Positions 697 through 18,402 of a DNA stretch of 20,000 nt are shown one piece after another. Made by a program: the position numbers and the translations under genes. The first letter of the stretch is position 1; every line of letters starts with the position of its first letter. Source of the stretch: Chloropicon primus. Lineage: Eukaryota. The notes beneath the pieces were generated by a model. It had not been told where the DNA came from, did not search any database, and saw only the letters and a list, made by a program, of their open reading frames with translations. The stretch is from NCBI GenBank assembly GCA_023205875.1, contig CP060756.1, positions 1,483,777 through 1,503,776 of the forward strand, in the 5' to 3' direction.

Positions 697-1476
697 TCAC
701 CCCCTGCTGAGATCCTCCGAGGCTTGCCTGAGCTTGCCGAGCTCCTCCGGCGTGGCCTCCCCACTCCCCCTCCACCTGACCTTCCCCCCCTTGTCCACCA
801 GGAAGCAGTACGCCGTCAGCCGATTCGAGATGTCCAGGAGTCGCTGGAACTCCCTCAGGTTCCCGAAAGCGGCCATCAGCTTTATGCCACCCACCGCCGA
901 GCCCTGCTCCCTCTTTGCCATCTCCTTCGCCAGGCCTCCGAGGATCACAGACTTGAGCGGGCCTGCCCTGAACAGGAGCGACTCCACGCAGCAGAGCTCC
1001 AGGACCCCGACCTTGGCCTGGCTCGCCCTCGAGGAGGCCAGAAACCCCTCCGTCCAGGTTCTCAGGTGCCCCTTGGCGTTCTCCCGAAAGTACACCCCCA
1101 CGACTGTCCCGGACGACCCCGCTCCACTCTCGTCGGTGAGGAGGCCAGCCACGTCCACCGGGCCCTTGGGGTGAGTGGGGACCGCGAGGCCGGGGTGGCC
1201 CGTCGAGAAGTTGATCGGATGGGCACTCACGTTCCTAGGGAAGTCCTTGGACGTCCTGTGCGACAGGAGGTGGGGCGAGCAAGGGAACACCTTGCCCCCA
1301 GTATCTCGCATCTCATTCAGCTCGAAAAAGTACCCCTTCTGAAGCCTCTTCTTCTCGAGGTGGTCAAAGTGACGCTCCGGGACGCGGCTCAGTCGCAAGG
1401 CCCACCCCATTCGCGCCCCTCGGCCCCCCGGGTCAAGGCCCAGGCGCCTCACCGACCCCCCCAGCGACTGCAGCAT
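697..1476 (-). CDS. ATP10: Mitochondrial ATP synthase assembly factor ATP10-like protein
   Basis: C-terminal N-x-L-T-A-Y-C-F-L-V-D-x-x-G-K-V-R-W-x-G-S-G-x-A-T-x-E-E-L signature, GYFFELNEMRDTGGK motif, and an Arg-rich presequence-like N-terminus. Confidence 0.8.
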   Translation of the reverse strand: MLQSLGGSVRRLGLDPGGRGARMGWALRLSRVPERHFDHLEKKRLQKGYFFELNEMRDTGGKVFPCSPHLLSHRTSKDFPRNVSAHPINFSTGHPGLAVPTHPKGPVDVAGLLTDESGAGSSGTVVGVYFRENAKGHLRTWTEGFLASSRASQAKVGVLELCCVESLLFRAGPLKSVILGGLAKEMAKREQGSAVGGIKLMAAFGNLREFQRLLDISNRLTAYCFLVDKGGKVRWRGSGEATPEELGKLRQASEDLSRG

Positions 1477-1669: not shown

Positions 1670-3406
1670 TCACTCCACTTTCTTGTACAGCTGCCTGTAA
1701 TGGGTTCCCGCCGTGAAGACGTACTTGAGGAAGAAGGCTCCTCCCCCGAAACGGAACAGGGTCGAGGTCAGCATGGAGGCCGAGGAGGCCAGCTTGAAGG
1801 CCGTCGTCTCGCTGCCCTCCACCAGAGGAGAGTGGCAGGCTGGAATCACCTGCATGTGGGTGGCAACCATGCTCGAAATTGTTGAAAGCCAAAGCATCTT
1901 GGTCCAAAATTTGGAAAAGGTCTGGAGATTCAAGCCCGCGGAGAAGTTCTTCTTCAGGTAGTCCTCGAGGTTGTAGATGATGACTCCGACCGCCGCCATG
2001 ATGATGCCGTTGAAAAGGTGGTGCATGTGCAGGAGAATGGCGTACCTGATGTTCACCTGGTGGATGGGAGGGTGCGAGAGCTTCTCCCTGATGCCTCCGA
2101 CGGTGAAGGGGACGATGAGGCCCGCCATCACGGCGTACGCCCAGAAACCACTCACCACGACAACCAGGAGGCCATGGAACACGAAGTTGGTCCTCACGTT
2201 GTTGGCGCAAGTCTCGAAGGGCTTGTACATCACCTTGGGCAGGTGACCGATGACGGTGGCCACGTGGATGTTGGTGTTGATGGCCGTGAAGTTCACCGTG
2301 CAGAAGAAGAAGATCCTGTCGATCAACCATCCCGCCGTTGCGGGCGCGCCCGCGACCAACGTCCAGCTCGGGTGCATGAAGTGCCCACGCATCTTGGAGT
2401 TCATGTAAAACGCGGTGCTGAAGTACGTGAGCTGAACGGAGATGCTGCTGATGGCGTCGAGCTTAGTCCAAAAGGTCGCCTGCGCCTTGCCCTCGCCCTC
2501 ATCCCTCAAGCAAGGGAAGAGCTGGGCCCCCGCGATGACATACAAGGCGTGCATGGCCATCTGGTCGAACGCTTTCGAGTAAACCTTTCTTCGTCCGGGC
2601 ACCATGGGCTCCACGAAGTACTCTCCTGGGGCAGTGGGGTCTGCAATACCGTGGTTGGCAAGAAGCATCCACGCCCCAAAGAGCATGTAGAAGAAGTTCA
2701 CCCAAAAGTAAAGGAACTCTGCGCTGGCCTTCCTGGCCGCCTCCTTGTTCTTGAACTTGCCAACAAAAGGGCCAGTCATGGACCCACCGTTCATGGACAA
2801 GAGCCCCACGAGGGCAAAGACCAAGACGTAGAGGACGTTGGAGAACCAGTACAGAACATCGATATCGGGTGAGGTCGTGTAGCCCTTCGTAAATCCTCTC
2901 TCGGCCCACTCCAAGTTAATCGTCGACCCACCGTTGAGCAAGGTCATGACGATCTGGTGGAGTATCACCCAGACGTGGGAAAGGGGCAGGAGGAAGTACA
3001 CAAGGGAAACCGTCTTGGGGGATGTGGAGCCCTTTCTCAGCGCACTCTCGAGGCAAGCCGGCATCACCGCCAGGTACACAGCCCTGTAAGGGAGCACGTT
3101 GTTTGCAAGATGGGCAATAACAGACTTGCCACCACCTATCACCGTGACCAAGAAGTTCTCGTACTCCTCTTCCCCCGGCGTCTTCACGCCAAACCCCTTG
3201 GCAACCTGAAACAGTGAGGAGGCCAACACAAAGATTGCAGCCCACAAGTAACACCAGATTCTGCCCCTCGAGGCGTCGTTTGGCTTCATCTTGTGCGCCG
3301 TCAGTGGCAAGGCGGTCATCTTGCACCAAAAGGCGTGGTATCCCCAGAAGAACACCACCACCACGCCAATCACAATGAACAAAGAATCCGTCGCAGGACT
3401 CTCCAT
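1670..3406 (-). CDS. 578-aa polytopic membrane protein (stand-alone module B), homologous to the distal part of the fusion membrane domain
   Basis: ATG at 3406 (MESPATDSLF...). The longer 765-aa ORF-track call runs through a microsatellite and the divergent gene. About 12-13 hydrophobic segments, collinear similarity to fusion residues ~280-815, C-terminus KKVE. Confidence 0.75.
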   Translation of the reverse strand: MESPATDSLFIVIGVVVVFFWGYHAFWCKMTALPLTAHKMKPNDASRGRIWCYLWAAIFVLASSLFQVAKGFGVKTPGEEEYENFLVTVIGGGKSVIAHLANNVLPYRAVYLAVMPACLESALRKGSTSPKTVSLVYFLLPLSHVWVILHQIVMTLLNGGSTINLEWAERGFTKGYTTSPDIDVLYWFSNVLYVLVFALVGLLSMNGGSMTGPFVGKFKNKEAARKASAEFLYFWVNFFYMLFGAWMLLANHGIADPTAPGEYFVEPMVPGRRKVYSKAFDQMAMHALYVIAGAQLFPCLRDEGEGKAQATFWTKLDAISSISVQLTYFSTAFYMNSKMRGHFMHPSWTLVAGAPATAGWLIDRIFFFCTVNFTAINTNIHVATVIGHLPKVMYKPFETCANNVRTNFVFHGLLVVVVSGFWAYAVMAGLIVPFTVGGIREKLSHPPIHQVNIRYAILLHMHHLFNGIIMAAVGVIIYNLEDYLKKNFSAGLNLQTFSKFWTKMLWLSTISSMVATHMQVIPACHSPLVEGSETTAFKLASSASMLTSTLFRFGGGAFFLKYVFTAGTHYRQLYKKVE

Positions 3407-3796: not shown

Positions 3797-6700
3797 ATGA
3801 AGAAAAGCAACGTGGAGGACAAGGTGGAACCTCCGCAAGTGGACACCATTGCCAACAGAGGGACGCCCAAGATCCTCAGATTTCACGTGCTGCAGGGGTT
3901 CAATTATCTCTTCGCCGGCGCCTACTTTGCCTACCTCGCACTCTACGGGAGCGAGGCCAAGCCACACTACGTGAGCAAGCTATGGATGCAGCTGGAGGAC
4001 CCGCCACTCAACCCTCTGGAGAGGACGCTCCTGGCCATGTTCTGGCTCTGCCCCTCCTGCATCGGGCTTGGGTACCTCCTGATCCCCAAACATCTGGAGA
4101 GCGTGTACGGTTCCTTCTTGACAATGTCAAGTGGGGTCATACTGGCGTTCCGCCTGGCTCTGACGCCGGCCCAGTACCTCACGCTCATTATTTTTCCTGT
4201 GGACTTTGGTGGAATCCTGTACAAGCTGCGGCTGCTGCGAGAGGAGTTCTGGGCCATTCCCAAGGAGTCCAGAAAGATTTTGTGGAACGTTCCTGAGGCT
4301 GCAGACAGGTCGACCATGTCCAGGCTCCTTGAATTCGAGTGTTACTTCTTTGCGGTGTACCTGTACGTGCTGTCCTTTGTGAGCACGGACGTCCTCCTGC
4401 CGGGGTGCAGCGGCACAAGGGTGGCCCCCTTCTCGAAGATCTTCTTCGGCTGCCAGGCGGTGGTCTTCGTGTACGTTGTGCCTGGCTTGAGGCAGGGGAA
4501 GAACCTGGTGGCCTACATGCTCCTCTGCAACAAGGCCATCGTGTCCTGCTTTTTGATCAAGGGCATCTTCTTTGACGGCGTGATTCCCAACACGATGGGC
4601 GCCTGGGTCCTGCTGCCGTACGTGACGACCTTGGCCTTTGAGTTCCACCTGCTCCTGTGGAAGAGAGTGATGCGGTATTCCATATTTTCTCGCTACGTGA
4701 CCAGAAGGCAAGCTTCGAGCGCAAAGTACTTCAGCATGCTGTTCGCCGTGCTCATCGTCACGTTATCCAATACGTGGTACATCTGCACGGGGAGCGGGCT
4801 GGCCTCGATCAGCAAGACGTACGGAAGTTTCCTTGACAGACTGGCTTTCCTTCCCGGCACGGACAAGAACGCGGATAGAGTGCGCTTCCTCGACGCGATG
4901 CTTGCTGGCGTCCTCTTCTTGTTTGTGATAGCGCTGGAGGAGGTGTTGGCGAAGAAGAACACGGCGAGGGTCGTATCCAGGATCCACTTTGTGCTCACCA
5001 TTGGCGCCTTTACCTTTTCCATCATGTTCAAAGTGTTCTGCAATTTGGACGTCAAGTCGAGTTGGCACGGCACCGTGGCTGCCTCTGATCACAGGGTTGG
5101 GATGCATTGCATCTACTGGGTTGTGAACGCGTTCCTGCGCGTGGCGTTTCCCCTTGCTTGCTTGTTCGTTCTCTGCAACGTGGATGGGCCCATCAGCTCT
5201 TGGACGATCTCGATGAAGGGGCCCAAGAAGACAAAGTCCCGCCTCGCGAGCACGATTGTGGTTCAAAACACCGTCAGGACGGCAATCAAGAGGACTATGA
5301 TCTTCCACGGCATGAGCATGATGATGTTTGCCTCTTTGGCCAGCACGCTGTTCACGTCTGGCTTGCCCACCTTCTTCCCCAACGACAGCATTTTTGGTGG
5401 GCACTACATCATCAAGCCCTTGGTGCCTCACAGCGTCGACTCGCAGCGCTCTCTGTTTTACGTCGGTCTTGTGATTGCGTTTGTTACGGTTATCATGGGG
5501 AGCGCCCTGGCGACCATCGACGGCAGGGCACTGCCAGTGGCCCAGTTTTTGAGCGCGGTGTGGCCACTCTCTGCTTGGGCGTTCTTGCTCGATTCCTGGA
5601 TTTCTTTGGCGTATCAGAGGGGCAGCAAGCTCCACCACTACTTTGAACCCCTTTTCAGGGGCTCCATGGTCGTGAACTCCGAGCATATGACCTCCATAGC
5701 GGTGGTGGGCATGGGCACCGCCGCGCTGAGCCTGATGGTTGTGCTCTTCCTGAGGGTGAGGAGCGTCTCCGTGTACAACAGGAAAGTTCAGGCCCCCTCT
5801 GATTTTGCTGAGGAGCTCTCCCACTCGCACAAGCAGTCGTACATCTTCCACAGCAGCGTCCTGGTCTTCTCTGCGAGCGTCTTCATGCTGAGGTCTTGCA
5901 AGTACGCCGACACGAGCAGCGTGGGTGCCATCTTCAAGGATTACTTGTTCGATGACATCGTGGCTTGCCTGACGATGATGAACTTCGGCTTTGTGATTTA
6001 CGAGTGCAAGGAGGGGCTGCATCACCGGAGTTTCTTGTCCAAGGTCACGTCACTGAAAACGGCGTGGATCCTTTCGGGTTACGTGTTGTTTTCGGCCAAC
6101 AAGGCTCTGGGATACTTTGGTTTCTCCGACACGAGGATCGAGATGGTTTACTTGGTTTCGTACGTTGTGTACAACATTGTGATCCAGTTCCAGTCCGCTC
6201 GAGCTGTGGTCGAGGCGATCTACTTCATCCGCCCGAGCTTCAACTCCAACCTTCCTGCGATCCTCAAGTCCTTCAATGCTTTGAGCAGGAGTCAGACAGA
6301 AGATGTGGACACGGGTCTTGTTGGCGTACCGGTGGATGAGGACAATACAATTGTGCCGAAGAATCTGACAAAGGGTAATCCAAACTGGAAGAACAACTGG
6401 AGGAAGTGCTTCGAAAGAGAGTTTGGGGAAAGGACGCTGGCTGACAATGTCAAGACCTGCTTTCCGATCCCTATGCCTGCTGACAAGTCAGGCTTGAACG
6501 CGCTGAAGCGCAAGGCAGTGTTTGGGTCGTGGAAAAAGTACAAGCGCAAGCCCAAGTCTTTTGTCGGAGCCTGTGGCATGTTTGAAGTGATCGAGAACGA
6601 CAAGGTTCCTCCCACAGTTTTTTTTGAGCCAGGAAAGCGATATTATCTTCGATGCAGACATTCGAACGTGACTTGGGACGATGATGCGGGGTTAGACTTT

Positions 6701-9514
6701 CGGGGTGTTGCACTGAAGTTTGGTCACGGAAGACACAAAAGCGACTTTGATTTGCACATGTCAACTGGAGAGATTCCCCCGTTTGTCAACGTCCCAACCA
6801 TGTTGGAGTACATGGGCAACGCAAAGCGCGACTACATGATGAAAAACCCAATGGTTGCGATGGCTGCGATTGAGGGCCAACGTCGGGCCCCCGAGACCTT
6901 TGCGCAGCTTCACTACTACTCCCACTTTTGCAAGAATTTCTGGAGCATCGATGGAATGAAGAGGTACTGCAAGTTCAGGCTCGTGCCGTACGGAGCCGGC
7001 CCCTTCACTGAAGTAGGCCCAGAGGCGTTCAAGCCAAACGCAGAGGACCAGCAGCGCATCTGCCAAAGTCTTGACGCAGATCATGAGAGGCTGCCCGGCG
7101 AGAAGAGGGAGGAGGACTATCTTCGCAAAGAATTCAGAGCGAGGCTTCAGGAGGACGTCGTTCGTTACAGGCTGCAAATTCAGCTTCGCGAGGCCTCTGA
7201 AGTGGAGACCCACGAGGTCTTCAACCCGTGCAAGAGGTGGGACGCACCTTTCTTGGACATCGGCGTAGTCACCCTCTTTGCGCCTCTCGTCGACTACGAG
7301 ACACAGCAAACGGCGTTTGACTACTTCTCTTGGGGGCCGGACTGCTTGTCCCTGATCAAGCCGGTGGGGCTGCTCGACTACAGCTCCATTAATTGGCTCA
7401 GGGAAACGGCGATGAACGGCCAAGGAAAGGCTCCGTGGAGCCTGATGCTCAGGTCCAAGAAGGACAAAGTCTTCAAGAGTCCGTGCAAGTACGTCATCAA
7501 CGTCCACACGTCTCACGTCATGTTCAGCGGCATCGACGGGAACGCGTACGTCACCATCGTGGGCACCAAGGCGTCGACCACGCAGCTTCTCCTTGAGAAC
7601 GGCGGTTACGACTTCGAGGCGGACACCGTGAGCCGGTTCGTGGTGTACGACGAAGATGTGGGCGATCCGTTGTACTGTTTCCTGCACCACGATTCCAACG
7701 AATCTTGGAGGAAGCGCTTGTTGAAGCTGGACTTCTTCGTGGGTTCCAAGTGGAATTGCGGCAAGGTGCAAGTCACGAGCAAGTCCCCGAGGCACGGAAA
7801 GAAGAAGACGACTTTCTTCGTCTGGAAGTGGCTGTCAAAGGGGGAGCTAGCGTTTGCGGTAGCCGACCGAATCCCTGCCACCCCCAAGGCCCAAGCGATC
7901 TCGAGGGAGCTGTTCAAAAAGTACTTCGAGGACAAGCGGAAAAACTACGCGTGGACTTCCGGGCGTTACCTGCCCAACCACTTGACTTGCCCGACCCACG
8001 CGGACCTCCCGGAGGAGGAGCAATTTTCGGTGGTGAAGCACAAGGACTTCCTTGCCATCAGCATGGGGGCGATGCTGAGCCAGAAGCTGGTGAAGACTTA
8101 CTTGCAGGGCGAAAACCTGAAGAGGATAGAGGATTACTACAGCCTCTACGCGACGGAGCAGCCGGGGAAGCACCTTAAGCACTGGTACACCGACGAGGAG
8201 CTGGGAAGGCAGCTGATGAATGGCGTCCATCCTCTCTGGTTCCGCAAGTGCACCGTGATCCCGCGGAAGTTCAAAGTCGACGATGAGACGCTCTCTGGCC
8301 TTCTCCCCCCCGGAAGAACCCTGGCGCAAGAAATGGAAGCGGGCCACATCTTCATTCTGGACTACGAGATCCTCGAGGGGATTTCAACCGCCCCGGGAGC
8401 CTACGTCGCCACCCCGATAGCTCTGCTCTTCGCGAGCGAGGACACCACCTTGCGCCCGATCGCGATACAGCTGAGCCAGAGCGGAGGTCCCGTGTGGACT
8501 CCGAAGGACTCTCCCCTGGAGTGGATCCTGGTCAAGATGCACCTCGTTTCCGCGGACAGCAACTGCCACCAGATGGTCTCCCACTTGTTCGGCACCCACC
8601 TCCTGATGGAGCCCTGGGCCGTCGCCCTGGAGAGAACCCTGTTCAGCGCGCACCCCGTGTACAAGCTGCTGAAGCCTCATTTCATGTACACCATCGGCAT
8701 CAACACCATCGGCAGGACCACCCTCATCCAGCCGGGGGGGATCGTGGACCGAGTTCTTGCCATAGGCGGGGGGGGGCACATCGAGCTGGTCGCGAAAGCG
8801 TACTCGAGATTCAAGCTGGAAGATTTGAACGTCCCGCTCACCCTGGAAAGGAGGGGAGTGGTGGACAAGGCCGTGCTGAAGAATTACTACTGGAGGGACG
8901 ACGCTCTCCTCCTGTGGGGTGCAATCAAAAAGTACGCTCTAGCGGTCCTCGGAGTGCACTACAAGAGCGACCGGGACGTGAAGGGGGACGACCAAGTGCA
9001 GAGCTTCATCAGAGAGATGAGGTACAGGGGCTACGAGGGCGAGGATCCTGATCAGCACGGTGTTCCGCACACCATCACCACCATCGAGCAGCTGGCTGAT
9101 CTGTGTACTTCCCTTCTCTACTGCACCTCGTGCCAGCACGCCGCGGTGAACTTTGCGATGTTCGATTACTACTCCTTCATCCCGAACAGGTGCCTGTGCT
9201 TGCACGGTCCGCCGCCGACGAAAAAGGGAGAGGTGACGGAGGAGTACATCTGCAGCATTCTGCCGAACCTCGAGCAAAGCTCGCTCACGAGCGCGACGGT
9301 GTACGCGCTCTCCAATTTTTCTAGCGAGGAAGTGTTCATAGGGCACTACAAAGTGGACACGATGGACTTCTCGGAGGAGGACAAGGCCACCATGGACTTC
9401 AAGGACGACCTCGAAGGGATCGAGCGCCGTATCCGGGAGAGGAACTCGCGCCTGGGCATTCACGAGTACAAGTACCTGCTTCCCAGCAGGGTCCCTGCGA
9501 ACATTGCCATCTAG
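3797..9514 (+). CDS. Fusion 1 (1905 aa): multi-TM domain + degenerate catalase-related AOS-like domain + PLAT + lipoxygenase
   Basis: Uninterrupted ORF. The catalase-like part (~6380-7450) has RHSN, RRAPETFAQLHYYS, RYCKFR and RYRLQIQL but lacks the heme His/Asn/Tyr. PLAT lies at ~7480-7860. The LOX has HQMVSHLFGTHLLMEP, YYWRDD, QHAAVNF and C-terminal ANIAI. Confidence 0.93.
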   Translation: MKKSNVEDKVEPPQVDTIANRGTPKILRFHVLQGFNYLFAGAYFAYLALYGSEAKPHYVSKLWMQLEDPPLNPLERTLLAMFWLCPSCIGLGYLLIPKHLESVYGSFLTMSSGVILAFRLALTPAQYLTLIIFPVDFGGILYKLRLLREEFWAIPKESRKILWNVPEAADRSTMSRLLEFECYFFAVYLYVLSFVSTDVLLPGCSGTRVAPFSKIFFGCQAVVFVYVVPGLRQGKNLVAYMLLCNKAIVSCFLIKGIFFDGVIPNTMGAWVLLPYVTTLAFEFHLLLWKRVMRYSIFSRYVTRRQASSAKYFSMLFAVLIVTLSNTWYICTGSGLASISKTYGSFLDRLAFLPGTDKNADRVRFLDAMLAGVLFLFVIALEEVLAKKNTARVVSRIHFVLTIGAFTFSIMFKVFCNLDVKSSWHGTVAASDHRVGMHCIYWVVNAFLRVAFPLACLFVLCNVDGPISSWTISMKGPKKTKSRLASTIVVQNTVRTAIKRTMIFHGMSMMMFASLASTLFTSGLPTFFPNDSIFGGHYIIKPLVPHSVDSQRSLFYVGLVIAFVTVIMGSALATIDGRALPVAQFLSAVWPLSAWAFLLDSWISLAYQRGSKLHHYFEPLFRGSMVVNSEHMTSIAVVGMGTAALSLMVVLFLRVRSVSVYNRKVQAPSDFAEELSHSHKQSYIFHSSVLVFSASVFMLRSCKYADTSSVGAIFKDYLFDDIVACLTMMNFGFVIYECKEGLHHRSFLSKVTSLKTAWILSGYVLFSANKALGYFGFSDTRIEMVYLVSYVVYNIVIQFQSARAVVEAIYFIRPSFNSNLPAILKSFNALSRSQTEDVDTGLVGVPVDEDNTIVPKNLTKGNPNWKNNWRKCFEREFGERTLADNVKTCFPIPMPADKSGLNALKRKAVFGSWKKYKRKPKSFVGACGMFEVIENDKVPPTVFFEPGKRYYLRCRHSNVTWDDDAGLDFRGVALKFGHGRHKSDFDLHMSTGEIPPFVNVPTMLEYMGNAKRDYMMKNPMVAMAAIEGQRRAPETFAQLHYYSHFCKNFWSIDGMKRYCKFRLVPYGAGPFTEVGPEAFKPNAEDQQRICQSLDADHERLPGEKREEDYLRKEFRARLQEDVVRYRLQIQLREASEVETHEVFNPCKRWDAPFLDIGVVTLFAPLVDYETQQTAFDYFSWGPDCLSLIKPVGLLDYSSINWLRETAMNGQGKAPWSLMLRSKKDKVFKSPCKYVINVHTSHVMFSGIDGNAYVTIVGTKASTTQLLLENGGYDFEADTVSRFVVYDEDVGDPLYCFLHHDSNESWRKRLLKLDFFVGSKWNCGKVQVTSKSPRHGKKKTTFFVWKWLSKGELAFAVADRIPATPKAQAISRELFKKYFEDKRKNYAWTSGRYLPNHLTCPTHADLPEEEQFSVVKHKDFLAISMGAMLSQKLVKTYLQGENLKRIEDYYSLYATEQPGKHLKHWYTDEELGRQLMNGVHPLWFRKCTVIPRKFKVDDETLSGLLPPGRTLAQEMEAGHIFILDYEILEGISTAPGAYVATPIALLFASEDTTLRPIAIQLSQSGGPVWTPKDSPLEWILVKMHLVSADSNCHQMVSHLFGTHLLMEPWAVALERTLFSAHPVYKLLKPHFMYTIGINTIGRTTLIQPGGIVDRVLAIGGGGHIELVAKAYSRFKLEDLNVPLTLERRGVVDKAVLKNYYWRDDALLLWGAIKKYALAVLGVHYKSDRDVKGDDQVQSFIREMRYRGYEGEDPDQHGVPHTITTIEQLADLCTSLLYCTSCQHAAVNFAMFDYYSFIPNRCLCLHGPPPTKKGEVTEEYICSILPNLEQSSLTSATVYALSNFSSEEVFIGHYKVDTMDFSEEDKATMDFKDDLEGIERRIRERNSRLGIHEYKYLLPSRVPANIAI
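3873..6311 (+). repeat. 2439-bp direct repeat copy 1 (membrane-domain coding region)
   Basis: Matches 11135..13573 at offset 7262. The only difference I noticed is A4865 vs G12127 (K/E). Confidence 0.92.
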
Positions 9515-9762: not shown

Positions 9763-10650
9763 CTACACCCGCTTCTGCTTCTTCTTGCCAAAGTCCAGGG
9801 CGTGATGCCCGGCCAAGAACAGCAACTCACTGAAAAGGCTCAAGGCGTACGGAAGAAGGACGAAGGAGTACATCGTCCTCGGGACAACCTTATCCACGAA
9901 GACGCCCTTGATCAAAAAGCAGGACACGATGGCCTTGTTGCAGAGGAGCATGTAGGCCACCAGGTTCTTCCCCTGCCTCAAGCCAGGCACAACGTACACG
10001 AAGACCACCGCCTGGCAGCCGAAGAAGATCTTCGAGAAGGGGGCCACCCTTGTGCCGCTGCACCCCGGCAGGAGGACGTCCGTGCTCACAAAGGACAGCA
10101 CGTACAGGTACACCGCAAAGAAGTAACACTCGAATTCAAGGAGCCTGGACATGGTCGACCTGTCTGCAGCCTCAGGAACGTTCCACAAAATCTTTCTGGA
10201 CTCCTTGGGAATGGCCCAGAACTCCTCTCGCAGCAGCCGCAGCTTGTACAGGATTCCACCAAAGTCCACAGGAAAAATAATGAGCGTGAGGTACTGGGCC
10301 GGCGTCAGAGCCAGGCGGAACGCCAGTATGACCCCACTTGACATTGTCAAGAAGGAACCGTACACGCTCTCCAGATGTTTGGGGATCAGGAGGTACCCAA
10401 GCCCGATGCAGGAGGGGCAGAGCCAGAACATGGCCAGGAGCGTCCTCTCCAGAGGGTTGAGTGGCGGGTCCTCCAGCTGCATCCATAGCTTGCTCACGTA
10501 GTGTGGCTTGGCCTCGCTCCCGTAGAGTGCGAGGTAGGCAAAGTAGGCGCCGGCGAAGAGATAATTGAACCCCTGCAGCACGTGAAATCTGAGGAGCTTG
10601 GAAGACTGAGTCTTTGCCAAATGGTCGGGGTCTTTGATTTCGTTCCCCAT
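9763..10650 (-). CDS. 295-aa ~8-TM membrane protein (stand-alone module A), paralog of the fusion N-terminus
   Basis: First 249 codons appear identical to fusion 2, followed by a diverged but still alignable last helix (VVPRTMYSFVLLPY vs VIPNTMGAWVLLPY) and the tail GKKKQKRV-stop. Confidence 0.75.
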   Translation of the reverse strand: MGNEIKDPDHLAKTQSSKLLRFHVLQGFNYLFAGAYFAYLALYGSEAKPHYVSKLWMQLEDPPLNPLERTLLAMFWLCPSCIGLGYLLIPKHLESVYGSFLTMSSGVILAFRLALTPAQYLTLIIFPVDFGGILYKLRLLREEFWAIPKESRKILWNVPEAADRSTMSRLLEFECYFFAVYLYVLSFVSTDVLLPGCSGTRVAPFSKIFFGCQAVVFVYVVPGLRQGKNLVAYMLLCNKAIVSCFLIKGVFVDKVVPRTMYSFVLLPYALSLFSELLFLAGHHALDFGKKKQKRV

Positions 10651-11826
10651 CTTTTGTCTCTCTTTGTGTGTGTGTGAGCCCCTAACCCCCTACTGTCCTG
10701 CACACCCAGGGAGGTGAAAGAGAGGAAAGAGGTGTCCTCCGGAGAGAAAGGTGTTCCCGCGAATTTTGACGATTCCCGCGAATTTTTTTGACGATTCATG
10801 GGACCTCGTCTGTTCATGTGACTCGTCGAACGAGGGTGCTACCCTAGCAACGAAAAAGGTGCGAGTTGTCGGGGAGGAGCGAGGGAAGGGTGTGGGGTGG
10901 ATTGAGGGCGAGGGTAGGGGTCTCAGGCCTCAACGACGAGGACCAACGACACTGTCTGTGGACCAGTGGGATGAAGGTACAGGAGGAGCGAAACCGCTAG
11001 GACAACCAATCACAAGATAAAGGGCAGACCTCTATAAGAGAAAAACAAGCACGCACGCACGCGCAAAGAGAAACAAAAGATGGGGAACGAAATCAAAGAC
11101 CCCGACCATTTGGCAAAGACTCAGTCTTCCAAGCTCCTCAGATTTCACGTGCTGCAGGGGTTCAATTATCTCTTCGCCGGCGCCTACTTTGCCTACCTCG
11201 CACTCTACGGGAGCGAGGCCAAGCCACACTACGTGAGCAAGCTATGGATGCAGCTGGAGGACCCGCCACTCAACCCTCTGGAGAGGACGCTCCTGGCCAT
11301 GTTCTGGCTCTGCCCCTCCTGCATCGGGCTTGGGTACCTCCTGATCCCCAAACATCTGGAGAGCGTGTACGGTTCCTTCTTGACAATGTCAAGTGGGGTC
11401 ATACTGGCGTTCCGCCTGGCTCTGACGCCGGCCCAGTACCTCACGCTCATTATTTTTCCTGTGGACTTTGGTGGAATCCTGTACAAGCTGCGGCTGCTGC
11501 GAGAGGAGTTCTGGGCCATTCCCAAGGAGTCCAGAAAGATTTTGTGGAACGTTCCTGAGGCTGCAGACAGGTCGACCATGTCCAGGCTCCTTGAATTCGA
11601 GTGTTACTTCTTTGCGGTGTACCTGTACGTGCTGTCCTTTGTGAGCACGGACGTCCTCCTGCCGGGGTGCAGCGGCACAAGGGTGGCCCCCTTCTCGAAG
11701 ATCTTCTTCGGCTGCCAGGCGGTGGTCTTCGTGTACGTTGTGCCTGGCTTGAGGCAGGGGAAGAACCTGGTGGCCTACATGCTCCTCTGCAACAAGGCCA
11801 TCGTGTCCTGCTTTTTGATCAAGGGC
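9904..11826. repeat. Long inverted repeat: arms 9904..10666 and 11064..11826, ~397-bp spacer
   Basis: Arms are reverse complements (coordinates sum to 21730). One mismatch seen in the 5' UTR part (10658/11072). Confidence 0.92.
10667..11063. promoter_or_regulatory. Putative bidirectional promoter between the module A gene and fusion 2
   Basis: Head-to-head ATGs at 10650 and 11080. Tandem TTCCCGCGAATTTT(TTT)GACGA at 10754-10797, CCAAT at 11006-11010, TATAA at 11033-11037. Confidence 0.45.
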
Positions 11827-14800
11827 ATCTTCTTTGACGGCGTGATTCCCAACACGATGGGCGCCTGGGTCCTGCTGCCGTACGTGACGACCTTGGCCTT
11901 TGAGTTCCACCTGCTCCTGTGGAAGAGAGTGATGCGGTATTCCATATTTTCTCGCTACGTGACCAGAAGGCAAGCTTCGAGCGCAAAGTACTTCAGCATG
12001 CTGTTCGCCGTGCTCATCGTCACGTTATCCAATACGTGGTACATCTGCACGGGGAGCGGGCTGGCCTCGATCAGCAAGACGTACGGAAGTTTCCTTGACA
12101 GACTGGCTTTCCTTCCCGGCACGGACGAGAACGCGGATAGAGTGCGCTTCCTCGACGCGATGCTTGCTGGCGTCCTCTTCTTGTTTGTGATAGCGCTGGA
12201 GGAGGTGTTGGCGAAGAAGAACACGGCGAGGGTCGTATCCAGGATCCACTTTGTGCTCACCATTGGCGCCTTTACCTTTTCCATCATGTTCAAAGTGTTC
12301 TGCAATTTGGACGTCAAGTCGAGTTGGCACGGCACCGTGGCTGCCTCTGATCACAGGGTTGGGATGCATTGCATCTACTGGGTTGTGAACGCGTTCCTGC
12401 GCGTGGCGTTTCCCCTTGCTTGCTTGTTCGTTCTCTGCAACGTGGATGGGCCCATCAGCTCTTGGACGATCTCGATGAAGGGGCCCAAGAAGACAAAGTC
12501 CCGCCTCGCGAGCACGATTGTGGTTCAAAACACCGTCAGGACGGCAATCAAGAGGACTATGATCTTCCACGGCATGAGCATGATGATGTTTGCCTCTTTG
12601 GCCAGCACGCTGTTCACGTCTGGCTTGCCCACCTTCTTCCCCAACGACAGCATTTTTGGTGGGCACTACATCATCAAGCCCTTGGTGCCTCACAGCGTCG
12701 ACTCGCAGCGCTCTCTGTTTTACGTCGGTCTTGTGATTGCGTTTGTTACGGTTATCATGGGGAGCGCCCTGGCGACCATCGACGGCAGGGCACTGCCAGT
12801 GGCCCAGTTTTTGAGCGCGGTGTGGCCACTCTCTGCTTGGGCGTTCTTGCTCGATTCCTGGATTTCTTTGGCGTATCAGAGGGGCAGCAAGCTCCACCAC
12901 TACTTTGAACCCCTTTTCAGGGGCTCCATGGTCGTGAACTCCGAGCATATGACCTCCATAGCGGTGGTGGGCATGGGCACCGCCGCGCTGAGCCTGATGG
13001 TTGTGCTCTTCCTGAGGGTGAGGAGCGTCTCCGTGTACAACAGGAAAGTTCAGGCCCCCTCTGATTTTGCTGAGGAGCTCTCCCACTCGCACAAGCAGTC
13101 GTACATCTTCCACAGCAGCGTCCTGGTCTTCTCTGCGAGCGTCTTCATGCTGAGGTCTTGCAAGTACGCCGACACGAGCAGCGTGGGTGCCATCTTCAAG
13201 GATTACTTGTTCGATGACATCGTGGCTTGCCTGACGATGATGAACTTCGGCTTTGTGATTTACGAGTGCAAGGAGGGGCTGCATCACCGGAGTTTCTTGT
13301 CCAAGGTCACGTCACTGAAAACGGCGTGGATCCTTTCGGGTTACGTGTTGTTTTCGGCCAACAAGGCTCTGGGATACTTTGGTTTCTCCGACACGAGGAT
13401 CGAGATGGTTTACTTGGTTTCGTACGTTGTGTACAACATTGTGATCCAGTTCCAGTCCGCTCGAGCTGTGGTCGAGGCGATCTACTTCATCCGCCCGAGC
13501 TTCAACTCCAACCTTCCTGCGATCCTCAAGTCCTTCAATGCTTTGAGCAGGAGTCAGACAGAAGATGTGGACATTGCCCTGCTTCAGGTGAATGTTTCCA
13601 GTGCCAAAGCCAAAGATTATTTCACAGGAAAGTTGACAAAGGGTAATCCAAACTGGAAGAACAACTGGGCCAAGCACTACATCGAGAACTTCGGGGAGAA
13701 TGTCTATAATGATGCCACAGCAAAGGAATTTCCTATTCCAATGCCTCCTCCAGATGAATCTGACCTGAAGAAGCAGCAAGGAAAAGCTGCTTTGACGTTC
13801 TTGGTGGCGGCATCAATCTTTCGAAGAAGGCCTACCCACCCCGTGGGCGTTGGTGCTTATGGCATGTTCGAAGTCCTCGACAATGAGAACGTTCCTCCAA
13901 CGGAGTTCTTTGTTCCTGGTAAAATCTTCCACCTTCGTGCAAGGCATTCGAACGGCGTGGGCGTGCAGACAAAGGAGAAGCCAAAGAAATTCGATGACGC
14001 TGCATTGGAGGTCAGGAGTCTTTCCATCAAGCTGGCAAAGGGAAGGGACGACAGCCCATTCGACCTCAATCTGAACACTGGCGAATTTGCGGGCTTTTAC
14101 AACTTGCCCTCTTTCAGGGACTTCGTCTACATGAGCACGATGAATGACCAAAAACTGTTTGACAAGTTTGCTGTGAAGTATCCATCGTGCTTGATGGCAG
14201 AGGTTGATGGCTTCAGGCGCGCCCCAGAAACCTTCGCGCAGCTTCATTACTACTCTCAGACCTGCAGGAGCTTCAACGGCCTGGATGGAAAGAGAAGATA
14301 CTGCAAGTTCAGGGCCGTTCCGTATGGCAAGGGACCTTTCACTGAAGTTGAGGCGGAGCCATTTATGCCTGACGACGACGATCAGAAGCGAATTGTCACA
14401 AAGCCCATGATGTCGCACCACAGGTTGGATGACGAGAAGAGGCCGACGGACTACTTGAGAACTGAGTTCAAGAACAGGGTGACAAACGAGGTCGTGAGGT
14501 ACAGGTTGCAGATCCAGCTGCACGAGTGGCAGGCCAATGACACCGACGAGGTCTTCAATGCAAACAAGGCCTGGGGAACGCCTTTCCACGACATTGGCAT
14601 CATCACCTTGCACACGCCGATGAACGACTACGAGACGGAGCAGACCTCCTTCAACATCGGGAACTGCCCAAGGTGCATCTCTTTGGTGAAGCCCAAGAGC
14701 GCTTTCGATTACCACACCATTAACTGGACAAGAAAGGCGGTGTACGGCAAGTCCTCAAGGATCAGGAGGTACTTCTCGAAGAAGAAGTCTCCTTCCTTTG

Positions 14801-16845
14801 TGAGCCCGTGCCGTTACATCCTGGACTTCCACACCTCCCACGTCGTTTTTAGCGGCATGGATGGTAACGTGCAGGTCACGCTCGTTGGAACCAAGGGCTC
14901 GACGACAGAAATTTTCCTTGAGAACAGCGCCTATGACTTCGAGGTTGACACGGTCAGCAGGTTTGTGGTGTACGACGAGGACATTGGAGATCCCTTGTAC
15001 ATGTTCGTCACTCACGACGCCGACGAGACTTGGAAGAGGAAGCTCTACAACCTCGACTTCATGATACCGAACAAGTGGAACCTCGGCAAGGTCCAGGTCT
15101 CGAGCAAGAGCCCCATATACGGCGACAAGAAGACCAACTTTTACGTCTGGCGCTGGATGAGCAAAGGCGAGCTCGTTTTTGCCATCGCGGACAACATCCC
15201 GGAGGACGACCCCAAGGTGAAGTCCATCCTGCCGCAGCTGCTGGACAAGTACTTCCAGAACAAGAAGTCGATTTACGACTGGAGCTCTGGGGACTATCTG
15301 CCAAACCACTTGTCCGCCAAGGGACACGGCGACCTCCCTGAGGAGGAGCAATTCTCTTCCATGAAGCTCAAGGATTTTGCCGTGTCCGCCATCGAGGGTC
15401 TGAAGAATCAGAAGCTTGTCGGTTTGTACTTCCAAGAAGAGAGCTTCAAGTCCTTGGACGAGTACTACAAGTGCCTGCAGACGCTTCCCCCGTTTCCCCC
15501 CATCGAGAACTGGCACACGGATGAGGAGTTTGGAAGGCAGCTGATGAACGGGACGCATCCTGTCATGTTCATGAGGTGCAGCAAGATCCCGGAAAACTTC
15601 AAGGTCAACGACGTGGTTCTGGAGGGCCTCCTTCCGGCGGGCAAGACCCTGCGGCAGGAGCTGGACGCGGGGCACATCTTCATTATCGACTACAAGGTGC
15701 TGGAGGACATACCTTGCGCGCCCGGTCGGTACTGCTCGTCCGGGCTGGGCCTGCTCCACGCGGACGGGAAGAACTCCTTGAAGCCGATAGCGATCCAGCT
15801 TCACCAGGACGGGGGAGCGATTTGGACTCCCAAGGACAAGCCACTGCAGTGGCTCCTGGCCAAGCTGCACCTTATTTGTGCGGATGGCAACATCCACGAG
15901 ATGGTGACCCACCTCTTCTCCTGCCATCTCGTGATGGAGCCTTGGGCGGTGGCCTTGGAGAGGAATGTGCCCAGCTACCACCCCGTGTTCAGGATGCTGA
16001 AGCCCAACCTGGCTTACACGATCGCGATCAACACGATCGGCAGGAACACCTTGATCGCCAAGGACGGGGTGAGCGACAAGATCCTGTCCATCGGCCAAGG
16101 CGGCCACATCGAGATCATGGCCAAGGCGTACACCTACTTTCAGATGTACCACCTTGACCTGCCCGAGATGCTGGAGAGGAGGGGCGTGATGGACAAGGAC
16201 GTCCTGCCGAGCTACTACTGGAGGGACGACTCCATGGAGATCTGGGGGGCATATCACAAATACGCCAAGGCCGTCCTCACCGCGCACTACGACGGGAAGG
16301 ACTCGGGGGTCAGGCGGGACGCGTTTGTGCAGAACTTGATAAGGGACGTGAAGTTCAACGGGTATTACAACGAGGATCCCGACTACCACGGGGTCCCGGA
16401 CAGCGTGGACACCATAGAGCAGCTGGCGAAGCTCTGCACTTGCGTGCTTTTCCAGACCTCGTGCATGCACGGCTCCGTGAACTTCAGTCAGTACGACTAC
16501 TACTCGTACGTCCCCAACAGGCCCCTGACGATGAGGCAGCCTGTGCCGAGGGAGAAGATCGAGGTGGACGAGGACCTCATCTGCAAGAACCTGCCAGACG
16601 CCAAGGGCTGCGCGAGGAGCATCGCGGCGGTGTGGGCCCTCTCCCAGTTCTCCGACGAGGAGGTCTTCCTGGGTTACTCCAAGATGGTGACCATGGACCT
16701 CCCCTACCAGAAGAGGGCCATCGACGAGTTCAGGAAGGACCTCAAGGCGATCGAGGCCAAGATCGTGGCAAGGAACGAGGGCCTCGGCAAGTTCGGGTAC
16801 ACCTACCTCCAGCCCTCCAGGGTGCCGACCAGCATCGCCATCTGA
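11080..16845 (+). CDS. Fusion 2 (1921 aa): multi-TM domain + intact catalase-related AOS/HPL domain + PLAT + lipoxygenase
   Basis: Uninterrupted ORF. RRPTH (H920), RHSN, LNTGE (N999) and RKAVY (R1218/Y1222) match the coral cAOS motifs as I recall them. PLAT lies at ~14810-15190. The LOX has HEMVTHLFSCHLVMEP, YYWRDD, MHGSVNF and C-terminal TSIAI. Confidence 0.95.
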   Translation: MGNEIKDPDHLAKTQSSKLLRFHVLQGFNYLFAGAYFAYLALYGSEAKPHYVSKLWMQLEDPPLNPLERTLLAMFWLCPSCIGLGYLLIPKHLESVYGSFLTMSSGVILAFRLALTPAQYLTLIIFPVDFGGILYKLRLLREEFWAIPKESRKILWNVPEAADRSTMSRLLEFECYFFAVYLYVLSFVSTDVLLPGCSGTRVAPFSKIFFGCQAVVFVYVVPGLRQGKNLVAYMLLCNKAIVSCFLIKGIFFDGVIPNTMGAWVLLPYVTTLAFEFHLLLWKRVMRYSIFSRYVTRRQASSAKYFSMLFAVLIVTLSNTWYICTGSGLASISKTYGSFLDRLAFLPGTDENADRVRFLDAMLAGVLFLFVIALEEVLAKKNTARVVSRIHFVLTIGAFTFSIMFKVFCNLDVKSSWHGTVAASDHRVGMHCIYWVVNAFLRVAFPLACLFVLCNVDGPISSWTISMKGPKKTKSRLASTIVVQNTVRTAIKRTMIFHGMSMMMFASLASTLFTSGLPTFFPNDSIFGGHYIIKPLVPHSVDSQRSLFYVGLVIAFVTVIMGSALATIDGRALPVAQFLSAVWPLSAWAFLLDSWISLAYQRGSKLHHYFEPLFRGSMVVNSEHMTSIAVVGMGTAALSLMVVLFLRVRSVSVYNRKVQAPSDFAEELSHSHKQSYIFHSSVLVFSASVFMLRSCKYADTSSVGAIFKDYLFDDIVACLTMMNFGFVIYECKEGLHHRSFLSKVTSLKTAWILSGYVLFSANKALGYFGFSDTRIEMVYLVSYVVYNIVIQFQSARAVVEAIYFIRPSFNSNLPAILKSFNALSRSQTEDVDIALLQVNVSSAKAKDYFTGKLTKGNPNWKNNWAKHYIENFGENVYNDATAKEFPIPMPPPDESDLKKQQGKAALTFLVAASIFRRRPTHPVGVGAYGMFEVLDNENVPPTEFFVPGKIFHLRARHSNGVGVQTKEKPKKFDDAALEVRSLSIKLAKGRDDSPFDLNLNTGEFAGFYNLPSFRDFVYMSTMNDQKLFDKFAVKYPSCLMAEVDGFRRAPETFAQLHYYSQTCRSFNGLDGKRRYCKFRAVPYGKGPFTEVEAEPFMPDDDDQKRIVTKPMMSHHRLDDEKRPTDYLRTEFKNRVTNEVVRYRLQIQLHEWQANDTDEVFNANKAWGTPFHDIGIITLHTPMNDYETEQTSFNIGNCPRCISLVKPKSAFDYHTINWTRKAVYGKSSRIRRYFSKKKSPSFVSPCRYILDFHTSHVVFSGMDGNVQVTLVGTKGSTTEIFLENSAYDFEVDTVSRFVVYDEDIGDPLYMFVTHDADETWKRKLYNLDFMIPNKWNLGKVQVSSKSPIYGDKKTNFYVWRWMSKGELVFAIADNIPEDDPKVKSILPQLLDKYFQNKKSIYDWSSGDYLPNHLSAKGHGDLPEEEQFSSMKLKDFAVSAIEGLKNQKLVGLYFQEESFKSLDEYYKCLQTLPPFPPIENWHTDEEFGRQLMNGTHPVMFMRCSKIPENFKVNDVVLEGLLPAGKTLRQELDAGHIFIIDYKVLEDIPCAPGRYCSSGLGLLHADGKNSLKPIAIQLHQDGGAIWTPKDKPLQWLLAKLHLICADGNIHEMVTHLFSCHLVMEPWAVALERNVPSYHPVFRMLKPNLAYTIAINTIGRNTLIAKDGVSDKILSIGQGGHIEIMAKAYTYFQMYHLDLPEMLERRGVMDKDVLPSYYWRDDSMEIWGAYHKYAKAVLTAHYDGKDSGVRRDAFVQNLIRDVKFNGYYNEDPDYHGVPDSVDTIEQLAKLCTCVLFQTSCMHGSVNFSQYDYYSYVPNRPLTMRQPVPREKIEVDEDLICKNLPDAKGCARSIAAVWALSQFSDEEVFLGYSKMVTMDLPYQKRAIDEFRKDLKAIEAKIVARNEGLGKFGYTYLQPSRVPTSIAI
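11135..13573 (+). repeat. 2439-bp direct repeat copy 2
   Basis: Matches 3873..6311; identity ends abruptly after GATGTGGACA. Confidence 0.92.
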
Positions 16846-17109: not shown

Positions 17110-18402
17110 ATGGAGGTAGGCGGGGGAGGGACCACGCACCTCGGAGGCAAGAGGGACAGAAGGAGACTCGCTCTCGCATTCACACTCACACTCGCACGCC
17201 CCCGGGTGGAGTCCTTGGCGAGGACGAGAGCGAGAGCGAGAGCGAGAGCGAGTGGCCTCCCTGCAGGAGGTGCGAGGGAGAGGGAGGGCACGAGGAGGTC
17301 TTCGGGGGGTCCGTTCGAGGGACTCAGCCGCGTGGGCCTGGGGACGATGCTGTTCGGGACGACGACGGATAGGGAGGAGGCCTTCCGGCTCCTGGACCGG
17401 GCAGTGTCGCACCACGGCGTGAACCTCCTGGACACGGCGGAGATGTACCCCGTGCCACAGAGCGCGGGCACGCACGGGCTGAGCGAGGTCATCCTGGGGG
17501 ACTGGTTCAGCGCCAGGGTGGGGAGGGGGCGGGTCTTGCGCAGGGAGGACGTGGTCGTGGCCACGAAGGTCACCGGGCCGTCCGGCCAGATGCCTTGGAT
17601 CCGGGGAGGACCCGAGCGCCTGGACGCCGAGGCCATCATCGAGGCGTGCGAAGGGAGCCTGGCGCGGTTGGGCCTGGACCACGTGGACATCCTGCAGCTG
17701 CACTGGCCCGACAGGTACGTCCCCATGTTCGGCGAGTCGCTGTACAGGCCCGGGAGCAGGTACGAGGACCGCGTCCCCCTGGAGGAGCAGATGGAGGCCC
17801 TCGGGTCGCTGGTGAGGCAGGGGAAGGTCAGGAGGGTCGGCCTGAGCAACGAGACGCCCTGGGGGCTGACGAGGTGCTGCGACTTGAGCCGGTACGGCGG
17901 CTTCCCCAGGATTCACTACCTTCAGAACTCCTACAGCCTCCTCTGCAGGACGTTCGACTGCGGCGGCCTGGCGGAGTGCTGCTGGGAGGAGGGGGTGGAG
18001 CTCCTGGCCTACTCCCCGCTGGCCATGGGACTCCTCACGGGGAAGTACCTCCCACCGGAGGGCGAGGGGGCGGACCTCGGGGGCTGGGGCCCTCCCGGGG
18101 CCAGGCTGAACCTGTACAAGGGGAGGTACTCGGAAGCCGAGTCGAGGTACGAGAGGACCAGAGAGGTGACCAGGGCGGTTGCGAGGTACGGCGACCTGGC
18201 GGGGAGGCACGGGATGACGCTGACGGAGCTGGCCGTGAGGTTCGTGCTCTCGAACGAGCGCGTCGGGTGCGCGGTCCTTGGCGCGACGTCCTGCAGCCAG
18301 CTGGACGAGCTCCTTGACTACGCGGGGAGGGGCGCGCTGGACTCGAGGATACTGGACGAGATCGACGGCGTTCACAGGGCGGCTCCGAACCCAACTCCCT
18401 GA
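17110..18402 (+). CDS. Aldo-keto reductase, Tas-like
   Basis: GLGTM, LDTAEMYPVP, ATKV, LHWPDR (D/Y/K/H tetrad), GLSNETPWG, QNSYSLL and LLAYSPLAMGLLTGKY. The Arg/Ala-rich N-terminal extension may be a targeting peptide. Start codon is uncertain. Confidence 0.92.
   Translation: MEVGGGGTTHLGGKRDRRRLALAFTLTLARPRVESLARTRARARARASGLPAGGAREREGTRRSSGGPFEGLSRVGLGTMLFGTTTDREEAFRLLDRAVSHHGVNLLDTAEMYPVPQSAGTHGLSEVILGDWFSARVGRGRVLRREDVVVATKVTGPSGQMPWIRGGPERLDAEAIIEACEGSLARLGLDHVDILQLHWPDRYVPMFGESLYRPGSRYEDRVPLEEQMEALGSLVRQGKVRRVGLSNETPWGLTRCCDLSRYGGFPRIHYLQNSYSLLCRTFDCGGLAECCWEEGVELLAYSPLAMGLLTGKYLPPEGEGADLGGWGPPGARLNLYKGRYSEAESRYERTREVTRAVARYGDLAGRHGMTLTELAVRFVLSNERVGCAVLGATSCSQLDELLDYAGRGALDSRILDEIDGVHRAAPNPTP

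What the first reader, a model, noticed from the sequence alone, without database searches (positions are those of the whole stretch)
6380..7450. Fusion 1 carries a catalase pseudoenzyme domain next to an intact LOX
All three heme catalytic positions differ from fusion 2. RRPTHPVGVG becomes KRKPKSFVG (no distal His, ~6542-6570). LNTGE becomes MSTGE (Asn to Ser989, 6761). RKAVY becomes RETAM (proximal Tyr to Met1206, 7412). Scaffold motifs and the reading frame are retained and all LOX iron ligands are present. Inference: division of labour, in which fusion 1 releases or hands over hydroperoxide and the dead domain is structural, lipid-binding or regulatory.
Basis: partly seen in the sequence, partly recalled or inferred. 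Interest (0 to 1): 0.75.

Follow-up and report, generated by a model that had tools for sequence, protein, structure and literature searches.

The report
Lipoxygenase fusion with dead haem domain
A tiny marine green alga has two neighbouring genes for predicted membrane-bound lipoxygenase fusion proteins, and in one of them the catalase-like domain has lost its haem-binding and catalytic residues while its core sequence stays conserved, so that protein likely releases fatty-acid peroxides unprocessed and probably keeps the dead domain as a folded spacer.

Summary
Observation confirmed. The window (Chloropicon primus-type, chromosome end) holds two tandem membrane-domain/cAOS/PLAT/lipoxygenase fusions. 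Fusion 1 lacks cAOS T66, H67, N137, Y353 and R360; its five LOX iron ligands and the R-type Gly are intact; fusion 2 keeps everything. Orthologues date the loss: a third species keeps His/Asn/Tyr (Thr to Ala), while a C. roscoffensis-like orthologue is also haem-less and shares derived changes. Between the two haem-less domains 87 of 103 family-invariant sites are kept against 70 of 167 variable sites, so the scaffold is relaxed but not neutral. Against a special role: fusion 1 is mostly broken in the C. roscoffensis-like lineage, expression is untested, and a coral AOS-LOX lacking T66/H67/Y353 was already noted in print (PMC5793058). Best reading: an R-lipoxygenase that likely releases free hydroperoxide, with the dead domain as a folded spacer; lipid binding, regulation and hand-over are unshown. 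This scan found the membrane-fused architecture before on other DNA (e1-563731), not the dead domain. New variant of a known kind; interest 0.45.

The parts
3797..9514 (+). Fusion 1 ORF, 1905 aa: membrane domain, haem-less cAOS, PLAT, lipoxygenase
   Evidence: P0003 named Chloropicon primus lipoxygenase QDZ20234.1 differs at 2 residues
3875..6310 (+). Fusion 1 N-terminal hydrophobic domain (aa 27-838), at least 11 predicted membrane segments; DNA 3867-6311 differs from fusion 2 at 2 bases
   Evidence: no Pfam or NCBIfam family
6368..7462 (+). Haem-less catalase-related (cAOS-type) domain of fusion 1, aa 858-1222
   Evidence: model pLDDT 90.4, TM 0.81 to 1u5u
6542..6568 (+). Distal loop without Thr66/His67, shortened by a deletion
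6656..6658 (+). Arg954, the kept haem-propionate Arg102 equivalent
6761..6763 (+). Ser989 in place of Asn137; Ser also in the C. roscoffensis-like orthologue
   Evidence: contig X10
6923..6928 (+). His1043-Phe1044 in place of Gln-Thr (cAOS 195-196); shared by both haem-less orthologues and by none of 12 active algal homologues
   Evidence: contig X3 6831-6981
7400..7414 (+). Proximal helix: Arg1202 (R349) kept, Met1206 in place of Tyr353; Ala in the C. roscoffensis-like orthologue
7478..7861 (+). Fusion 1 PLAT domain
   Evidence: PF01477, E 3e-11
7862..9511 (+). Fusion 1 lipoxygenase domain with H1596 (8582), H1601 (8597), G1639 (8711), H1781 (9137), N1785 (9149), I1905 (9509)
   Evidence: PF00305, E 6e-69; TM 0.91 to coral 8R-LOX
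9763..10650 (-). Short (295 aa) inverted copy of the start of the membrane domain, head to head with fusion 2
   Evidence: a 286-aa counterpart (P0017) clusters with the third species' fusion 1
11080..16845 (+). Fusion 2 ORF, 1921 aa, same architecture with all cAOS and LOX catalytic residues
13636..14790 (+). Intact cAOS-type domain of fusion 2 (T919, H920, N999, R1218, Y1222, R1229)

Best explanation
Fusion 1 carries a catalase-like domain that has lost its haem-binding and catalytic residues next to a lipoxygenase with all iron ligands, so it likely works as a membrane-anchored R-type lipoxygenase that releases fatty-acid hydroperoxide unprocessed, the dead domain probably being kept as a folded spacer between the membrane domain and the PLAT-LOX unit. 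History (inferred from trees): a membrane/cAOS/PLAT/LOX gene duplicated before three Chloropicon-type species split; the fusion 1 cAOS drifted from the allene-oxide-synthase type (Thr66 to Ala in the species that still has His/Asn/Tyr); the haem site was then lost once, before C. primus and the C. roscoffensis-like lineage separated. Since then the pocket and surface evolve fast while the core is held, because a domain in the middle of the chain has to fold. Fusion 2 would make and convert its own hydroperoxide; fusion 1 would supply a second, probably different product. Shown: residue losses, shared loss, constrained core, conserved LOX. Inferred: absence of haem, LOX activity, membrane location, product, spacer role.
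For: Residue losses. Fusion 1 orthologues form one clade, ((P0001,P0245),P0004), with 100/100 support on the cAOS domain. Burst on the stem to the two haem-less forms: 0.353 substitutions per site in cAOS against 0.047 in PLAT-LOX; afterwards 0.272 against 0.124 in C. primus and 0.612 against 0.229 in the sister, while fusion 2 gives 0.107/0.131 and 0.084/0.207. Shared derived states: 4-residue deletion, N137S, Q195H, T196F. Haem-less pair: 87 of 103 family-invariant sites identical against 70 of 167 variable sites, p 2.5e-12; in 900 neutral simulations the gap never exceeded 0.20 against 0.43 observed. Model keeps the cAOS fold (pLDDT 90.4, TM 0.81 to 1u5u). C. primus fusion 1 PLAT-LOX branch is as short as that of fusion 2 (0.124 and 0.131). 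Fusion 1 and fusion 2 LOX clades differ consistently at about 6 of 17 pocket positions (positions recalled). A coral 8R-LOX domain is active when expressed without its cAOS (PMC5617202 passage), which fits a LOX that does not depend on the haem domain.
Against: In the C. roscoffensis-like cluster none of the 15 listed members (of 41) is a whole protein; P0245 (13 contigs) and P0256 run into an out-of-frame tail inside the LOX, and 9 others stop early, so the whole gene is dispensable there. The selection test uses two lineages only and assumes a single loss; no codon-level dN/dS between orthologues could be run. 64 of 145 relatives keep His but show no Tyr at the aligned column, so Tyr loss alone does not prove haem loss in this family. 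30 positions are shared by the two haem-less domains and by no active algal homologue, which could reflect a new function rather than mere spacing. A model of a divergent sequence built on an alignment of active relatives leans towards their fold.
Confidence: 0.5

Rival explanations
1. The dead domain has an active non-catalytic job: its remodelled pocket binds a fatty acid or hydroperoxide, or it docks on PLAT-LOX and gates activity or membrane binding.
For: Burst of change on the stem followed by retention; His1043/Phe1044, Ser989 and Pro994/Pro995 shared by both haem-less forms; His-Phe at the same two positions in a degenerate Lingula fusion, P0167; the three-domain model has pTM 0.89, which suggests a defined domain packing; coral cAOS helices at residues 56 and 357 are said to contact the LOX domain (PMC5617202 passage).
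Against: The segments matching those two contact helices are among the least conserved between the haem-less orthologues (14 and 11 identities in 30). The modelled packing differs from chain A of the coral fusion 3dy5 (TM 0.55, rmsd 28.8) and has no fusion 2 control. Shared states can be simple inheritance.
Confidence: 0.2
2. Fusion 1 as a whole is a redundant duplicate on its way out; C. primus merely lags behind its sister lineage, and the domain's conservation is mostly left over from earlier selection.
For: Mostly broken gene in the C. roscoffensis-like cluster; only a fusion 2 type was found for the P0007 species; position about 10-16 kb from a telomere; cAOS rate raised about threefold or more relative to LOX.
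Against: Short C. primus PLAT-LOX branch; all LOX ligands intact and an open 1905-codon frame in two assemblies; Ser989 and Met1206 codons differ from the fusion 2 Asn and Tyr codons at all three bases, so the loss is old; invariant-site retention far above neutral.
Confidence: 0.15
3. Fusion 1 is a dedicated feeder: it co-localises with fusion 2 through their identical membrane domains and its hydroperoxide is converted by the fusion 2 cAOS.
For: Membrane domains are near-identical within each of three species (100%, 99.8%, 98%); tandem position.
Against: Fusion 2 has its own intact LOX; the two LOX pockets differ (recalled positions); coral cAOS and cAOS-LOX are monomers (PMC5617202 passage); identity of the membrane domains is explained by gene conversion alone; fusion 1 had its own haem domain in the third species.
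Confidence: 0.1
4. The domain still binds haem or a metal through a switched ligand (Met1206 or His1043) and does new chemistry.
For: Arg102 and Arg349 equivalents kept; His1043 is new and shared; many bacterial relatives lack Tyr at the usual place.
Against: Met1206 is Ala in the orthologue; those bacterial relatives mostly keep His67, Asn137 and Arg360, which fusion 1 lacks; the distal loop is shortened.
Confidence: 0.05

Closest known systems
[quoted passage not shown]
   Same: Order cAOS-PLAT-LOX in one chain; cAOS fold (TM 0.81); LOX fold, five iron ligands and Gly at the R/S determinant.
   Different: Fusion 1 lacks T66, H67, N137, Y353, R360; it carries an 840-residue membrane domain in front; it sits beside an intact paralogue; the coral pair AOS-LOX/HPL-LOX are both active.
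Orbicella faveolata AOS-LOX XP_020618715.1 as described in PMC5793058 (section 2.1.2 read whole)
   Same: Predicted fusion with LOX ligands intact and cAOS lacking T66 and H67 with Y353 changed (to Leu), beside paralogues with intact sites.
   Different: Noted there in one sentence, untested, no selection analysis; soluble coral type, Val at the R/S determinant; I did not fetch that sequence.
Degenerate 'allene oxide synthase-lipoxygenase-like' proteins of Branchiostoma (P0099, P0100, P0110) and Lingula (P0167)
   Same: cAOS haem residues partly or wholly lost, protein kept full length (in Branchiostoma across several species).
   Different: Their LOX iron ligands are lost too, so both halves look dead; no membrane domain.
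Membrane-domain cAOS-PLAT-LOX fusions of other marine picoalgae (P0005-P0014; earlier scan note e1-563731)
   Same: Same four-part architecture and about 1900-1980 aa.
   Different: All 10 of P0005-P0014 keep T, H, N, R, Y; only the fusion 1 branch has lost them.

Membership tests
Active catalase-related AOS/HPL haemoprotein | cAOS-type catalase fold | tested here: met
   phmmer E 1e-47 to 1u5u; model TM 0.81
Active catalase-related AOS/HPL haemoprotein | Distal Thr66-His67 | tested here: not met
Active catalase-related AOS/HPL haemoprotein | Distal Asn137 (supporting, not essential according to the PMC5617202 passage) | tested here: not met
   Ser989
Active catalase-related AOS/HPL haemoprotein | Proximal ligand Tyr353 with Arg349 | tested here: not met
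   Arg1202 kept, Met1206 for Tyr
Active catalase-related AOS/HPL haemoprotein | Haem-coordinating Arg64, Arg102, Arg360 | tested here: not met
   R102 kept, R360 lost, R64 alignment-dependent
Active catalase-related AOS/HPL haemoprotein | Haem bound; hydroperoxide turnover | not testable with these tools
   needs recombinant protein
Lipoxygenase (R-type, PLAT-bearing) | His/His/His/Asn/C-terminal Ile iron ligands | tested here: met
   H1596, H1601, H1781, N1785, I1905 (numbering from PMC5793058)
Lipoxygenase (R-type, PLAT-bearing) | PLAT plus LOX fold; Gly at the R/S determinant | tested here: met
Lipoxygenase (R-type, PLAT-bearing) | Dioxygenase activity and product | not testable with these tools
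   needs assay
Pseudoenzyme domain | Enzyme fold with catalytic residues lost | tested here: met
Pseudoenzyme domain | Kept under purifying selection after the loss | tested here: met
   protein-level only, two lineages:
Pseudoenzyme domain | Expressed | not testable with these tools
   no RNA data could be laid
Pseudoenzyme domain | A non-catalytic function (binding, scaffolding, regulation) | tested here: inconclusive
   single-chain model only

The most novel reading that the evidence does not exclude
A catalase fold was repurposed in picoalgae as a haem-free lipid or hydroperoxide-binding module: after a burst of change that removed the haem site and installed His1043/Phe1044, it gates or buffers its own membrane-anchored lipoxygenase, and the same conversion recurred in corals, brachiopods and amphioxus, making dead cAOS domains a recurrent class of oxylipin-pathway regulators.
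Probability: 0.2. Interest if true: 0.75.

Novelty: new variant of a known kind. Interest (0 to 1): 0.45.

Why it matters
No catalase-fold pseudoenzyme attached to a lipoxygenase was found described as such in the searches run, and oxylipin synthesis in Chloropicon, a widespread ocean picoalga, is not covered in the two genome papers' text I searched. The locus offers a natural series in one genus (intact Thr-His form, Ala-His form, haem-less form, broken gene) for testing how a two-step oxylipin enzyme changes product and loses a step, and whether the cAOS domain has a job beyond catalysis. If the domain is only a spacer, the value is modest: an annotation warning that 'AOS-LOX' labels hide half-dead and fully dead fusions.

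Tried and rejected
No whole genome was held. Expression: no RNA holder listed. The protein atlas did not answer for the membrane domain. The metagenome-contig scan gave one locus, L001, a chance 8-residue word in an unrelated phage-like contig: dropped; no orthologue DNA was obtained, so no orthologue dN/dS. Paralogue dN/dS (fusion 1 against 2) is near saturation (cAOS pS 0.72): not used. GC3 is equally low in both cAOS domains (0.685 and 0.688): no signal. A rough synonymous distance from one sister-type contig (13 third-position differences in 41 codons; species read by eye from loose ends) implies neutral identity near 0.4 against 0.575 observed, but is too small a sample to lean on. The 16 small-share runs were not used as habitat evidence; 8 were laid, 21 and 7 records, mostly short. 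A search for stand-alone relatives of 205-655 aa at E 1e-20 found none among 994 candidates, though the profile-free library search did list such proteins. Met as a new haem ligand: rejected, Ala in the orthologue. cAOS heterodimer: unlikely, coral cAOS is a monomer. My first idea that His1043 restores the catalase proximal His was off by one residue (register read; catalase numbering recalled). The upstream membrane-protein gene (1670-3406) shows no similarity to the fusions. Papers not held: Oldham 2005, Gilbert 2008, Gao 2008; seen only as references or second-hand.

Full report
Setting. The window has two long single-frame genes, 3797-9514 (fusion 1, 1905 aa) and 11080-16845 (fusion 2, 1921 aa), and ends in TTTTAGG telomere repeats. 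A protein named Chloropicon primus lipoxygenase (P0003, QDZ20234.1) differs from fusion 1 at 2 residues, so the DNA is of C. primus type and the gene is found in two assemblies. Each fusion has a hydrophobic N-terminal domain of about 840 aa with no Pfam or NCBIfam match, a cAOS-type domain, PLAT and lipoxygenase.

Observation. Confirmed residue by residue. Using C. imbricata AOS-LOXa (P0299) for numbering, fusion 1 lacks T66, H67, N137, Y353 and R360, keeps R102, Y193, S194 and R349, and keeps all five LOX ligands and the Gly determinant; fusion 2 keeps all of them. The residue list comes from passages of PMC5617202 and section 2.1.2 of PMC5793058. Changes concentrate on the haem site (5-6 of 7 against 10-11 of 96 other invariant sites). 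I aligned 161 cAOS-like domains (14 and 147 further ones from the best 150 of 382 hits); 145 span all three sites, 5 of these are gapped fragments at the His column, and of the other 140, 7 lack His and 6 lack all three residues; 64 of 145 keep His with no Tyr at the aligned column. Wild contigs match without difference over Ser989, His1043-Phe1044 and, near a contig end, Met1206; none of 8 runs covered the His loop.

Orthologues. The first search gave 14 long fusions. P0004, from an unnamed species, is the fusion 1 orthologue and keeps His, Asn, Tyr and the three Arg, with Ala for Thr66; P0006 is its fusion 2, sharing a 98% identical membrane domain. A T66V change is reported to induce catalase activity in coral cAOS (title and passage in PMC5617202), so this form may already differ in chemistry (inference). 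P0245/P0256/P0104 are a third fusion 1 whose membrane domain is 99.8% identical to that of P0005, the cluster holding C. roscoffensis WZN61162.1; it lacks His67, has Ser at 137 and Ala at 353. The two haem-less domains are sisters with full support, and share a 4-residue deletion, N137S, Q195H and T196F, so one loss before their split is the simplest reading.

Selection. Trees by domain (11 sequences each; near-redundant and degenerate distant rows left out) give cAOS against PLAT-LOX branch lengths of 0.353/0.047 on the stem, 0.272/0.124 for C. primus and 0.612/0.229 for the sister, against 0.107/0.131 and 0.084/0.207 for fusion 2. The haem-less pair is 57.5% identical, the live fusion 2 pair 84.9%. 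Identity is not even: 87 of 103 sites invariant in 12 active algal homologues are identical in the pair, against 50 of 87 two-state and 70 of 167 variable sites; 900 neutral simulations gave a gap of at most 0.20 against 0.43. So the domain is relaxed but its core is held. AlphaFold gives the cAOS fold at pLDDT 90.4 (TM 0.81 to 1u5u). A model of cAOS-PLAT-LOX has pTM 0.89 but packs the domains unlike 3dy5 chain A (TM 0.55, rmsd 28.8); without a fusion 2 control this is inconclusive.

Results against a special role. None of the 15 listed members (of 41) of the C. roscoffensis-like cluster is whole: 2 run into an out-of-frame tail within the LOX (P0245 on 13 contigs), 5 stop near residue 1551, 3 near 1380, 1 near 1430, P0104 has a complete PLAT-LOX but starts inside the cAOS, and 3 are other fragments; I saw proteins only, so some ends may be gene-calling artefacts. 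The segments that match the coral LOX-contact helices are among the least conserved in the pair. Coral cAOS and cAOS-LOX are monomers and the coral LOX domain works alone. Fusion 1 and fusion 2 LOX differ consistently at about 6 of 17 recalled pocket positions, which makes a different product more likely than a feeder role; PMC5793058 warns that no motif predicts LOX specificity.

Mechanism. Most likely (0.5): fusion 1 is a membrane-anchored R-lipoxygenase whose hydroperoxide leaves unprocessed, with the dead domain kept because it sits in mid-chain and must fold. Rivals: active binding or gating (0.2), a decaying duplicate (0.15), hand-over to fusion 2 (0.1), switched ligand (0.05). Activity, haem absence, expression and location are all untested.

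Known and new. cAOS-LOX fusions and a functionally split pair (AOS-LOX, HPL-LOX) are known from corals. PMC5793058 notes one Orbicella fusion lacking T66/H67 with Y353L and intact LOX ligands, so the half-dead state is in print in passing. Branchiostoma and Lingula have fusions degenerate in both halves. Searches of the held library found no paper on catalase-type pseudoenzymes with lipoxygenase (0 papers), none on Chloropicon lipoxygenase beyond one unrelated listing, and nothing further relevant (listings and abstract starts only). Passage searches of the two Chloropicon genome papers found no 'lipoxygenase' in PMC6731263 and no 'allene' in PMC12301720, nor either word in the one supplementary file held for the latter; other supplements and subscription papers were not seen and may bear on this. 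PMC11507377 was seen as passages and added nothing. What is new here is the dated loss, the evidence of continued constraint, and the graded series within one genus. Verdict: real, new variant of a known kind, interest 0.45.

Noticed in passing
window 3867-6311 and 11129-13573: The membrane domains of the two fusions differ at 2 of 2445 bases while the catalytic halves are about 66% identical in DNA; the same within-species homogenisation, ending at the linker before cAOS, is seen at protein level in two other species (99.8% and 98%): concerted evolution of one domain of an old paralogue pair.
   Followed up: partly
window 9763-10650 (-) and 9846-11884: A 295-aa inverted copy of the start of the membrane domain lies head to head with fusion 2 (831-nt arms, 97%, 377-nt spacer); a 286-aa counterpart exists in the third species (P0017), so the short gene is old.
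   Followed up: partly
P0099, P0100, P0110 (Branchiostoma), P0167 (Lingula): Full-length 'AOS-LOX-like' proteins that have lost both haem-site residues and LOX iron ligands; the P0099 cluster spans several Branchiostoma species: candidate double pseudoenzymes.
   Followed up: partly
P0004 cluster: Fusion 1 orthologue with Ala-His instead of Thr-His and a remodelled pocket: a natural candidate for a cAOS with changed chemistry.
   Followed up: partly
P0245/P0256 cluster: The C. roscoffensis-like fusion 1 occurs mostly as broken forms with several different stop points.
   Followed up: partly
window 1670-3406 (-): A 578-aa membrane protein gene without a family match, divergent from fusion 1 and about 390 bases away; no similarity to the fusions.
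   Followed up: no
P0182, P0224, P0176, P0215, P0233, P0240: cAOS-like domains fused to an acyl-CoA-binding domain plus LOX (P0182) or to a P450 (P0224), and four long non-LOX proteins with Phe at the distal His position.
   Followed up: no
P0007 and P0043: In one species the fusion 2 type appears split into a 743-aa membrane protein and a 1182-aa cAOS-PLAT-LOX; intron or true split not checked.
   Followed up: no
window 697-1476 (-), 17347-18402 (+), 19195-20000: ATP10 and aldo/keto reductase genes flank the locus; a 100-nt direct repeat and the telomere close the window.
   Followed up: no
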